Positions 2,399 to 38,401 of a stretch of DNA of 64,000 nt are shown piece after piece. Under the pieces are notes generated by a model. It did not search any database. It had not been told where the DNA came from and was given only the letters and a program-made list of their open reading frames with translations. Each line of letters starts with the position of its first letter. Position 1 is the stretch's first letter. The stretch comes from a virus (taxonomy: Duplodnaviria; Caudoviricetes). The DNA lies in the IMG/VR virus record IMGVR_UViG_2895374923_000001, positions 1 to 64,000 of that record; one strand, written 5' to 3'. A program made the position numbers and the translations under genes.

Positions 2399-2444
2399 AA
2401 GCGCGCCCTGCAGGATTCGAACCTGCGACCGTCGGATTAGAAGT
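2399..2444 (-). repeat. att core copy (displaced 3' half of tRNA-Arg), 46 bp
   Basis: AAGCGCGCCCTGCAGGATTCGAACCTGCGACCGTCGGATTAGAAGT is identical to 39806-39851. Confidence 0.95.
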
Positions 2445-2536
2445 TCTAGGCGTGGGGTTCCTGGAGGGCCCCCCAGAGCCGCTTCGCTGTTCACCGAACC
2501 TCCAGGACCCTCCAGGCACCTAGGGGACTACCCGGC

Positions 2537-37047: not shown

Positions 37048-37370
37048 GGTGGTTCTCCTTGTTCCTGGAAGTTCAAGCGGGGTCATGCTGGGTTAAGTTG
37101 TCGGCCCCCTCAGTGGGATCGTGCGGTAGCAGGAGTTGCACCTCCTGTTACCTGCACCCCGCTGGGGGGCTTTGTGCTTTGCGGACACCAAGAGTCTCCG
37201 GGATTCCCCCAGACCCCTCCTTGGTCCACTACATAAGCTAACGGGTCCGATGGTGGTTCACAACTCGCCTCGACCCTTGCAGCTTGCGCAAGGCGCAGGA
37301 CGGGAGCCCAAGGACTTATGCGCATCCGCATAGCGCGACACAGAACGGCGTGTTCGAATCCTTCTGGGCA

Positions 37371-37721
37371 CGTTGCTACTCGTTGCTACTCGTTGCCACT
37401 CGTTGCAGGAGACGAGGCTGATCGAGAGCGAAGCAATGTAACGCAGGACAACGCAAGCAGATGACTGAAGATGCATGAAGATCAGAGATAGTCAGAGATC
37501 GCCTGGTAGCAAGGCAGTCCTGGGCAGTTTTAGGCACCCGGACGGTGCGAAGGCTCCTCTGAACTGGTAGGGAACAGTAGGGAACAGAAGGAATCGTGTC
37601 GGCCTGGGGTTTCATGACAGCCCGCCATTCCTAAGCAGTGATCTCCGATGTGCACTTCTTCGCACACCCCAGGCAGTCCAGGAGATCCATGGGAGTCCCT
37701 AGAGTCTGTATAGGTCTGTAG
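37371..37721. repeat. Array of distinct 10-bp-period tandem repeat blocks in the xis/repressor intergenic region
   Basis: For example CGTTGCTACT x4, GGAACAGTAG x3, (A/T)(G/A)(A/G)GTCTGTA x2. Confidence 0.8.
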
Positions 37722-37825
37722 AAGACTTGCGGCCATGCATGATGAAAGCTACCTTCTCATGCATGAGCTGTCCGCGATGTGCGCACCCTTGGCGCGTTCT
37801 GGACGCTCCTAACCCCACTCTGGAG

Positions 37826-38401
37826 ATGCTCTTGACCGAGTTCGCCGACTGGCTCAGCACGACCGCGAGGGGCCTCGGCTACCGCACGGACGCCCAGCTC
37901 GCTGCCGCCCTTGAAGTGCAGCAATCCACTGTCACGCGGTGGCGCAAGGGCAACCAGCCGCAGATCAAGCACCTGATCGAGATGGCCCGCCTCTTCCAGA
38001 TGCCGGTGGCTCCCCTGCTTGTCCTGGCAGGCCACGTGCCGGCGGACCTCTTGGGGGGTGTAGAGCCTGCTGGGCTGCCAATGACGGAAAGTGTGCGACG
38101 GATTCGTGATGCGCCGCTGACTGACCTGCAGAAGAAGGCGTTGACCGTCTACTGGGACAAACGTCTCGCTGACGAGCGCCAGAAGTTGTCATATCTCATC
38201 GACTGGATCGCGGCCGGTGACAGCACGTCTCGGCAAGAGGCAGGTGACTCGCTGTTGGACCTGATCACGCAGGGGGTCCGATCGCAGGCAGCCACTCACC
38301 TCATGGAACTGATCGAGACCCTTGTCGCAATCGAAGCGACGCCGCGAAAGCGACGCCGCCGCACAGTCCGCCAGGACTCCCCCGACGACATACCGGAGTA
38401 G
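37826..38401 (+). CDS. XRE-family repressor of element 1 (start uncertain; 37739 or 37762 possible)
   Basis: TDAQLAAALEVQQSTVTRWRKG HTH; directly upstream of int. Confidence 0.8.
   Translation: MLLTEFADWLSTTARGLGYRTDAQLAAALEVQQSTVTRWRKGNQPQIKHLIEMARLFQMPVAPLLVLAGHVPADLLGGVEPAGLPMTESVRRIRDAPLTDLQKKALTVYWDKRLADERQKLSYLIDWIAAGDSTSRQEAGDSLLDLITQGVRSQAATHLMELIETLVAIEATPRKRRRRTVRQDSPDDIPE

What the first reader, a model, noticed from the sequence alone, without database searches (positions are those of the whole stretch)
37371..37721. Library of different operator-like 10-bp-period repeat blocks in the switch region of element 1
Seen: the ~780-bp xis/repressor intergenic region carries consecutive unrelated tandem blocks, each with a one-helical-turn period: CGTTGCTACT x4 (37371-37406), AACGCAGGAC/AACGCAAGCA (37440-37459), ATGACTGAAG/ATGCATGAAG (37461-37480), ATCAGAGATA/GTCAGAGATC (37481-37500), AAGGCAGTCC/TGGGCAGTTT/TAGGCACCC (37511-37539), GAACTGGTAG/GGAACAGTAG/GGAACAGAAG (37561-37590), AGGCAGTCCA/GGAGATCCAT/GGGAGTCCCT (37671-37700), AGAGTCTGTA/TAGGTCTGTA (37701-37720). 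Known: Xis/BldC-type proteins bind head-to-tail on ~10-bp direct repeats. Inference: this is more specificities than one repressor needs. It may be a collected array of binding sites for regulators of other mobile elements, acting as a sensor that couples induction to co-resident phages or as a decoy that titrates their repressors.
Basis: partly seen in the sequence, partly recalled or inferred. Interest (0 to 1): 0.85.

Follow-up and report, generated by a model that had tools for sequence, protein, structure and literature searches.

The report
Phased repeat blocks in prophage switch
The control region of a 37-kb prophage holds about a dozen short, unrelated direct repeats, each spaced exactly 10 bp; one block copies the phage integrase's arm site and one copies a neighbouring prophage's operator, so this looks like an unusually long multi-protein docking region, not a chance pattern.

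Summary
The 786-bp gap between the xis-like gene and the repressor-integrase operon has strong, strictly local lag-10 self-similarity: z = 8.5, and 12 tandem 10-mer pairs against 1.2 expected. Only four other places in the 11.4-Mb genome score as high, and all are plain one-unit tandem arrays.

The property is conserved but the sequence is not. Ten of eleven related elements have it, with different units at different places. Seven loci with a related repressor but no such xis lack it.

The blocks are not arbitrary. Block 1 (CGTTGCTAC) is the motif paired on both att arms of this prophage and all relatives. The last block matches the operator repeat of the adjacent prophage 2 at 18/19, but relatives in genomes without that repressor carry the same site. 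Repeated words are shared among elements five times above a reversed-sequence control. A conserved GGTTC x5 array sits at the xis start, and a GGTTCA pair sits on relatives' P arms.

Best reading (about 0.5): helically phased sites for the phage's own integrase N-domain and Xis-type protein, a long multi-specific variant of the P2 Cox / 186 Apl switch. The decoy or sensor library idea is not excluded (about 0.12).

The parts
2399..2444 (.). attL core: 46-bp exact copy of the 3' part of tRNA-Arg(tct); left end of the prophage
   Evidence: BLAST of the tRNA region against the genome
2537..2557 (+). P-arm pair of the arm-type motif CGTTGCTAC / CGTTGCTGC, 12-bp spacing
   Evidence: the same pair lies on the P arm of G056, G097 and L028
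36706..37047 (-). Xis-like HTH_17 gene, first gene of the leftward early operon (followed by PrimPol, D5-type helicase, HNH/AP2); start ATG 37047 behind an AGGAGA ribosome-binding site
   Evidence: Pfam HTH_17, PHROG 66; model matches Pukovnik Xis, RdfS, BldC and P2 Cox
37051..37095 (+). GGTTC-type motif x5 at exact 10-bp phasing, overlapping the xis ribosome-binding site and start region; candidate RDF (Xis) operator
   Evidence: positions 4/14/24/34/44 in the window and in the close relatives; a GGTTCA pair 10 bp apart lies next to the core on the P arm of G056, G097/L028 and L030
37103..37181 (+). Conserved long hairpin followed by a T-rich run; terminator-like or small-RNA-like on the + strand (antisense to the xis leader)
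   Evidence: alignments A2 and A3; 27 pairs, 6 with compensatory changes; several G-U pairs that would be A-C on the other strand
37371..37406 (+). Block 1: CGTTGCTACT x3.6, a copy of the integrase arm-type motif at 10-bp spacing
   Evidence: 12 exact copies of the 9-mer in 11.4 Mb, 5 of them in this prophage
37440..37459 (+). Block 2: AACGCAGGAC/AACGCAAGCA; its reverse complement carries GCGTTG, the 5' half of the arm site. The AACGC type is the most widespread block type among relatives
37461..37500 (+). Blocks 3 and 4: ATGACTGAAG/ATGCATGAAG and ATCAGAGATA/GTCAGAGATC (GAGAT type, shared with L006, L028, L030)
37511..37539 (+). Block 5: GGCAG x3; the only periodic block that aligns positionally with relatives
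   Evidence: alignment A1
37561..37590 (+). Block 6: GGAACAG x3 (GGGAAC type, shared with L005, L041, L043)
37671..37700 (+). Block 7: AGGCAGTCCA/GGAGATCCAT/GGGAGTCCCT, the weakest block (5-6/10)
37701..37720 (+). Block 8: AGAGTCTGTA/TAGGTCTGTA; the same two-unit site as the prophage 2 operator repeat, and as a reverse-oriented block in L005, L006, L028 and L031
37727..37765 (+). Putative repressor-int promoter (TTGCGG, 17 nt, TACCTT; inferred by eye) interleaved with the palindrome CATGCATGA-N14-TCATGCATG; likely repressor operator
   Evidence: palindrome I14; conserved in A1. The promoter is inference only: the consensus scan found none
37832..38401 (+). HTH_3 repressor (189 aa), in an operon with int
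38404..39708 (+). Tyrosine integrase, 434 aa, with about 90 aa ahead of the SAM-like domain
   Evidence: no Pfam arm-domain hit
39736..39756 (+). P'-arm pair CGTTGCTAC x2, 12-bp spacing, between the int stop and the att core
   Evidence: conserved next to the int stop in all relatives
39806..39851 (.). attR core inside tRNA-Arg(tct) (39808-39882, minus strand)
42862..43005 (.). Prophage 2 switch: RGTCTGTA repeats in both orientations around its cI (HTH_31) and cro (HTH_3) starts; includes the 18/19 match to block 8

Best explanation
The region is a composite docking surface in the lysis-lysogeny switch of a temperate siphophage. It is a chain of short runs of 2-4 head-to-tail sites spaced one helical turn apart. 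Proteins that bind direct repeats as cooperative monomers would assemble on them. These are the N-terminal arm-binding part of the integrase, which is co-transcribed with the repressor and so present in lysogens, and the Xis-type winged-helix protein, which is the first product of the lytic operon. The palindromes near the repressor promoter would serve the repressor. Through these sites the recombination proteins would also read or set the state of the divergent promoters. This couples excision to the switch, as P2 Cox and 186 Apl do, but over about 350 bp and with several unit types. Units turn over quickly by 10-bp duplication and decay, which keeps spacing and total length but not sequence. 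Shown: the periodicity, its conservation, the identity of block 1 with the att-arm motif, the shared unit repertoire, and the Xis fold. Inferred: who binds what, and the regulatory outcome.
For: The periodicity is real and local. It is conserved as a property in 10 of 11 elements that share the int<-rep | xis-> module, with z10 = 3.8-7.7 and an intergenic length of 745-784 bp wherever both gene starts are defined. Their replication modules differ: PrimPol+D5, HTH_36+DnaB, PrimPol+DUF3987. It is absent in 7 loci with a homologous repressor but without this xis (z10 = -1.7 to 2.9). Block 1 is the motif paired on both att arms here and in every relative; L028 holds an intact attP. L005 and L030 carry an identical arm-like 20-mer in opposite orientation and position, and tandemly repeated 6-mers are shared 20 times against 4 in the reversed-sequence control. 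GGTTC x5 lies at the xis start, and a GGTTCA pair lies on the P arms. The xis product models as an Xis/RdfS/BldC/Cox-type winged helix. Literature: RDFs bind direct repeats one turn apart, cooperatively and with low specificity; those of P2-like phages are the first lytic gene and use att-like sites in the switch (PMC7498355, PMC3936717). Int and RDF repress int through att sites in KplE1 (PMC2951348). RdfS reads long regions without a consensus (PMC11963761).
Against: No binding data exist. At least five block types have no counterpart at the att arms, and the phage has few obvious direct-repeat binders. Arm sites are spaced 12 bp at att but 10 bp in the switch. In the window's own P arm the GGTTC pair is degenerate. 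Clear arm-like blocks are seen in only 4 of 11 elements, or more if the AACGC type is counted as a half-site. Pfam finds no arm-binding domain in the integrase N-terminus. Promoters are not mapped.
Confidence: 0.5

Rival explanations
1. Phase-filtered spacer. The roughly 400 bp between the conserved xis-side module and the repressor-side module is mostly filler. Only its length and helical phase matter, for example for looping between proteins bound at the two ends. Only insertions and deletions of one helical turn survive, and insertions arise as tandem duplications, so the spacer fills with decaying 10-bp duplicates of arbitrary sequence.
For: Units are unrelated, with no common consensus or global phase. 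Turnover is fast while total length is conserved. Distances between conserved anchors are 552, 564 and 581-586 bp, roughly whole turns apart (my Rayleigh estimate by hand gives p about 0.09, and two of the six are close kin).
Against: It does not explain 3.6 copies of the exact arm motif, or the identical 20-mer in L005 and L030 in opposite orientation, or the five-fold excess of shared repeated words. Only lag 10 is enriched, never lag 11, although B-DNA has about 10.5 bp per turn.
Confidence: 0.2
2. Sensor or decoy library. Blocks are binding sites for regulators of other mobile elements. They couple this phage's decision to co-resident prophages or titrate their repressors.
For: Block 8 matches the prophage 2 operator repeat at 18/19. 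RGTCTGTA occurs 5 times in the window, all in the two switches. CTGTA-N5-CTGTA occurs only twice in the genome, once in each switch. The two phages share no regulators, only terminase. Precedent: satellite P4 carries cox-boxes read by helper P2's Cox (PMC3936717).
Against: Block 1 is the phage's own motif. The same two-unit TCTGTA site occurs in relatives in G056 and G097, where no homologue of the prophage 2 repressor was found, and it is the only such site in the 12-Mb G056 genome. Other blocks match nothing else in this genome beyond chance. The unit repertoire is shared across elements from different hosts.
Confidence: 0.12
3. Binding platform for a host nucleoid protein (Lsr2-type silencer or a bending protein), or intrinsically curved DNA, in a region of lower G+C.
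For: G+C is 0.57-0.61 against 0.67-0.72 around it. Locally periodic sequence gives locally coherent bends.
Against: No phase-coherent A/T or purine wave of period 10 runs across the region in 7 elements. The repeats are whole 10-mers, not A-tracts. G+C is still near 0.6.
Confidence: 0.08
4. Iteron-type replication origin for the adjacent PrimPol/D5 helicase genes.
For: It lies next to the replication genes and has direct repeats and lower G+C.
Against: The array goes with the int-rep-xis module although the replication modules differ among relatives. The units are not one repeated iteron, and there is no A+T-rich unwinding stretch.
Confidence: 0.05

Closest known systems
P2 Cox / 186 Apl switches (RDFs that double as lysis-lysogeny regulators)
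   Same: The gene order is att-int-repressor | RDF-replication, and the RDF is the first gene of the lytic operon with a winged-helix fold. Direct repeats one turn apart lie in the switch, and motifs are shared between att and the switch (PMC7498355, PMC3936717).
   Different: In P2 and 186 the region is about 60-110 bp with 6-7 copies of one degenerate box between face-to-face promoters. Here it is 786 bp with about 12 tandem pairs of at least 7 unrelated unit types. The clearest att-derived motif here is the integrase arm-type site, not the RDF box. There is no detectable sequence relation to Cox or Apl.
KplE1 IntS/TorI and P4 Int/Vis autoregulation through att sites
   Same: Integrase arm-type and RDF sites also act as operators (PMC2951348).
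   Different: There the promoter lies inside attL, so the same sites serve both roles. Here an extra set of arm-type copies sits 2.3 kb from att, in the switch region.
BldC, Pukovnik Xis and RdfS: head-to-tail winged-helix oligomers on direct repeats
   Same: These are the best structural matches of the xis-like protein. Pukovnik Xis matches with rmsd 1.0 A over 50 residues and TM 0.85 normalised to the target; RdfS and BldC follow. RdfS reads long regions without a consensus (PMC11963761).
   Different: The protein here has a disordered N-terminus of about 45 aa and a long C-terminal helix. Binding was not tested.
P4 cox-boxes read by helper P2 Cox
   Same: One element carries sites for another element's regulator, as block 8 may do for prophage 2.
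   Different: This phage is complete, not a satellite. The site type is also found in relatives whose genomes lack a homologue of the partner's repressor.

Membership tests
P2 Cox / 186 Apl-type RDF-regulated switch | The RDF is the first gene of the early lytic operon, divergent from a repressor-int operon next to att | tested here: met
P2 Cox / 186 Apl-type RDF-regulated switch | The RDF has the Xis/Cox winged-helix fold | tested here: met
   pLDDT is above 90 for residues 45-100. Top matches are Pukovnik Xis 4j2n, RdfS 8dgl, BldC 6ama and GIsul2 excisionase; P2 Cox 4lhf is at rank 19. Foldseek E-values are weak, 2e-3 at best
P2 Cox / 186 Apl-type RDF-regulated switch | The same RDF box occurs as direct repeats one turn apart both at att and in the switch | tested here: inconclusive
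   GGTTC x5 lies at the xis start, and a GGTTCA pair lies on the P arm of G056, G097/L028 and L030. The window's own P arm has one GGTTC plus a different CCTCCAGG x2-3 array. Assigning the box to the RDF is inference.
P2 Cox / 186 Apl-type RDF-regulated switch | [quoted passage not shown] | tested here: inconclusive
   The intergenic region is 786 bp. The consensus scan found no promoter. A repressor-proximal promoter read by eye would make the arrangement back-to-back.
Arm-type sites of a heterobivalent tyrosine integrase | A repeated motif lies on both arms flanking the core, conserved with the integrase | tested here: met
   (pairs at 12-bp spacing on P and P' arms; intact attP in L028)
Arm-type sites of a heterobivalent tyrosine integrase | The integrase has an N-terminal arm-binding domain | tested here: inconclusive
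   About 90 aa precede the SAM-like domain, but no Pfam arm-domain model hits them. The domain was not folded.
Iteron origin | Several copies of one iteron, an A+T-rich unwinding element, and linkage to the initiator gene | tested here: not met
   Units are unrelated. The array persists with three different replication modules.
Cross-element operator copy (P4 cox-box type) | The site is identical to another element's operator and depends on that partner | tested here: inconclusive
   Identity is met for block 8 only. Partner dependence is not supported: the site is present in G056 and G097, where no homologue of the prophage 2 repressor was found.

The most novel reading that the evidence does not exclude
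The array is an exchangeable address board. Each 2-4-unit block is a self-contained docking module for a different direct-repeat-binding protein. Modules are gained, lost, flipped and moved between phages, and some, such as block 8, are tuned to regulators of co-resident prophages. The switch would then integrate signals from several mobile elements in the same cell.
Probability: 0.12. Interest if true: 0.85.

Novelty: new variant of a known kind. Interest (0 to 1): 0.6.

Why it matters
Phage switches are usually described as one or two regulators on a few operators. Here a family of Streptosporangiaceae prophages keeps a region of roughly 350 bp whose only conserved property is local 10-bp repetition. 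It is built from a shared but shuffled set of units. One unit type is the integrase arm site, placed 2.3 kb from att.

If integrase and Xis assemble there, this is a clear case of recombination proteins wired into the lysis-lysogeny decision in actinobacterial phages. It would also show how cooperative head-to-tail binders evolve sites by one-turn duplication. The block shared with the neighbouring prophage gives a concrete, cheap test of cross-talk between prophages.

Tried and rejected
- **DNA similarity:** searching the region against the phage collection and against 40 relatives found nothing. Relatives had to be found through the proteins.
- **PrimPol as query:** it found only an unrelated context (L002).
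- **RNA families and promoters:** Rfam gave no credible hit, and the promoter/terminator scan found none.
- **Hidden common motif across blocks:** rejected. A fixed register of the conserved positions was also rejected.
- **Global 10-bp composition wave (curvature or wrapping):** rejected.
- **Blocks other than block 1 at the att arms:** not above chance.
- **Genome-wide near matches of the switch:** about as many as my own rough uniform-composition estimate predicts. The hit at C1:4070 and the hit on C52 were set aside after inspection.
- **CTGTA pair at G097:C5, next to a tRNA:** it looked like an arm site, but the neighbouring ORF is not an integrase.
- **Viral-contig scan for the block 8 site:** it returned only low-GC or coding matches.
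- **Satellite (PICI-like) reading of the element:** rejected. The att repeats are 37.4 kb apart and enclose terminase, portal, protease, capsid, adaptor and tape-measure genes.
- **Sequence search of solved structures with the Xis profile:** nothing useful.

Full report
**Context**

The window comes from an 11.4-Mb actinomycete genome. Its closest relatives are named Nonomuraea in public records.

A 46-bp repeat of the 3' part of tRNA-Arg(tct) lies at 2399-2444 and again at 39806-39851. The two copies bracket a 37.4-kb prophage. It has large terminase, portal, protease, major head, adaptor and tape-measure genes, so 'element 1' is a complete temperate siphophage.

At its right end the gene order is tRNA/attR, integrase (38404-39708), HTH_3 repressor (37832-38401, same operon), and a 786-bp gap. 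Then, on the other strand, come an HTH_17 Xis-like gene (37047-36706), PrimPol, a D5-type helicase and HNH/AP2. This is the P2/186 gene order.

**The observation**

- Lag-10 self-identity is 0.45 against 0.25 expected (z = 8.5). It is still z = 6.6 without the CGTTGCTACT array.
- Lags 9 and 11 are at background, and lag 20 is weakly raised.
- There are 12 tandem 10-mer pairs of at least 7/10, against 1.2 expected.
- In the whole genome only four other 200-bp stretches reach comparable lag-10 identity. All four are ordinary arrays of a single unit.
- The blocks share no common motif in register.
- There is no period-10 wave of A/T, purine or any single base across the region.

The signal is therefore purely local: a chain of independent 2-4-unit head-to-tail repeats.

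**Conservation**

No relative could be found at the DNA level. Through the repressor and the Xis-like protein I collected eleven elements with the same int<-rep | xis-> module. They come from Nonomuraea and Streptosporangium genomes and from metagenome assemblies.

Wherever both gene starts are defined the gap is 745-784 bp. Ten of the eleven have lag-10 z = 3.8-7.7. The exception (L042, apparently the same element as L007) has a divergent Xis (31% identity) and integrase (45%).

Seven loci with a homologous repressor but without this Xis show z = -1.7 to 2.9. Replication modules differ among the ten (PrimPol+D5, HTH_36+DnaB, PrimPol+DUF3987). The array therefore goes with the int-rep-xis module, not with an origin of replication.

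Alignment shows conserved ends: about 190 bp on the xis side and about 100 bp on the repressor side. The periodic middle cannot be aligned except for a GGCAG stretch.

**What the blocks are**

*Block 1.* The 9-mer CGTTGCTAC occurs 12 times in 11.4 Mb, and five of these are in this prophage. Two (plus one copy with one mismatch) lie in the switch. The rest lie at att: a pair on the P' arm between the int stop and the core (39736 and 39748), and an exact copy at 2537 on the P arm, about 100 bp inside attL, paired with a one-mismatch copy at 2549. Every relative has the same pair next to its int stop. Relatives G056, G097 and the intact attP in L028 also have it on the P arm, even where the target tRNA differs. 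Pairs on both arms are the signature of integrase arm-type sites.

*Arm-like blocks elsewhere.* In the switch regions of L005 and L030 an arm-like unit (TGCTACAACT x2) is present as an identical 20-mer but in opposite orientation and position. L044 has it as well. The widespread AACGC-type blocks, including the window's block 2, contain the reverse complement of the 5' half of the arm site. That resemblance is suggestive only.

The six closest elements have the same five-fold array. A GGTTCA pair 10 bp apart lies next to the core on the P arm of G056, G097/L028 and L030. Direct repeats one turn apart, on one arm and again in the switch, is the pattern reported for Apl and Cox (PMC7498355, PMC3936717). 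I therefore take GGTTC as the candidate box of the Xis-like protein. Its model matches Pukovnik Xis (rmsd 1.0 A over 50 residues), RdfS, BldC and, lower in the list, P2 Cox.

*Shared repertoire.* Taken together, the units are drawn from a shared set. Tandemly repeated 6-mers are shared between elements 20 times, against 4 in a control that compares real with reversed sequences. For 7-mers the counts are 4 against 0. Recurrent types are arm-like TGCTAC, AACGC, TCTGTA, GAGAT, GACAG, GGGAAC and GGCAG.

**The block shared with prophage 2**

- RGTCTGTA occurs five times in the window, all in the two switch regions.
- CTGTA-N5-CTGTA occurs only twice in the genome, at those two places.
- In prophage 2 the word is the repeated operator around its cI and cro starts.
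- The two phages share no detectable regulator, only terminase.

This is real support for cross-talk, and P4's cox-boxes for P2 Cox are a precedent (PMC3936717).

However, the same two-unit site is also present in L005, L006, L028 and L031, in reverse orientation and elsewhere in the gap. In the 12-Mb G056 genome it is the only such site, and G056, G097 and G344 have no homologue of the prophage 2 repressor. The site type therefore belongs to the family's own repertoire. Whether prophage 2's repressor also reads it remains open.

**Weighing the explanations**

A neutral or length-only spacer explains the arbitrary units and the conserved length. Anchor-to-anchor distances (552, 564, 581-586 bp) differ by roughly whole turns. 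It does not explain the exact arm motif, the shared and re-oriented units, or the absence of 11-bp repeats.

An origin of replication is unlikely because replication modules vary. Curvature or nucleoid-protein wrapping lacks the expected global phase.

The best-supported reading is a multi-protein docking region for the phage's own direct-repeat binders. The integrase is made with the repressor in lysogens, and the Xis-type protein is made first on induction. The palindrome at 37734-37765 would be the repressor's operator. RDFs are known to bind with low specificity and strong neighbour cooperativity and to spread (PMC7498355), and RdfS is proposed to read long regions by indirect readout (PMC11963761). 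Duplicating a tolerable 10-mer is a cheap way to add one protomer to such a chain. That would produce exactly this pattern of short, decaying, unit-specific runs. The orphan blocks remain unexplained, and no binding has been shown, so I give this 0.5.

**Novelty**

I file this as a new variant of the Cox/Apl kind of switch. It is far longer and multi-specific, and it has integrase arm-type copies away from att. In three literature searches I found no paper describing that arrangement.

Noticed in passing
window 37103-37181: A long hairpin is conserved in 9 elements. Its outer stem is sequence-conserved, its inner stem has 6 compensatory pairs, and a T-rich run follows on the + strand. Several G-U pairs favour the + strand RNA, which is antisense to the xis leader. 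The invariant GGGTTAAGTTG just upstream could hold a -10 (TAAGTT). It may be a small antisense or immunity RNA, or an attenuator. There is no Rfam match.
   Followed up: partly
window 37051-37095, and the P arms of relatives (L046 from about 1550; L028 attP): GGTTC x5 at exact 10-bp phasing lies over the xis ribosome-binding site, and a GGTTCA pair lies next to the att core in relatives. This is a candidate Xis/RDF box and an Apl-like dual use.
   Followed up: partly
window 2500-2530: The window's own P arm carries a different 10-bp phased triplet (CCTCCAGGAC / CCTCCAGGCA / CCTAGGGGAC) between the core and the arm-type pair. It may be the local RDF sites. It resembles the reverse complement of block 7 (37671-37700) only weakly, and not significantly.
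   Followed up: partly
window 42848-43015: The prophage 2 switch is itself built of 10-bp tandem pairs of one word (RGTCTGTA, plus ATCACTACAG/ATCACTACTG) in both orientations. The cro ATG at 43017 lies about 10 nt after a TAGTGT -10-like hexamer, which suggests a leaderless mRNA.
   Followed up: partly
window 2399-2444, 39806-39851; G000 C2:99060-99101: tRNA-Arg(tct) is flanked by prophages on both sides, and a further partial copy of the tRNA lies 59 kb downstream. G056 has three core copies in tandem (36.9 kb and 56 kb apart), so this tRNA is a stacking hotspot in the genus.
   Followed up: partly
G000 C45:334746-334815 and C23:174818-174870: Two other short 10-bp phased arrays were seen. 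One has a change of unit (TAAATCCG x3, then AAACACGG x2); the other is CGCTCCAGGC x5. Their gene context was not examined.
   Followed up: no
window 27.9-29.2 kb and 62.7-64.0 kb: The two neighbouring prophages share only their terminase genes (about 50% amino-acid identity, 66% DNA identity).
   Followed up: no
L043 (record CP109131.1, named Streptosporangium sp. NBC_01755): This relative has the switch, hairpin and periodic array (z10 = 5.1), but only a fragment of integrase follows the repressor. It may be a decaying copy.
   Followed up: no
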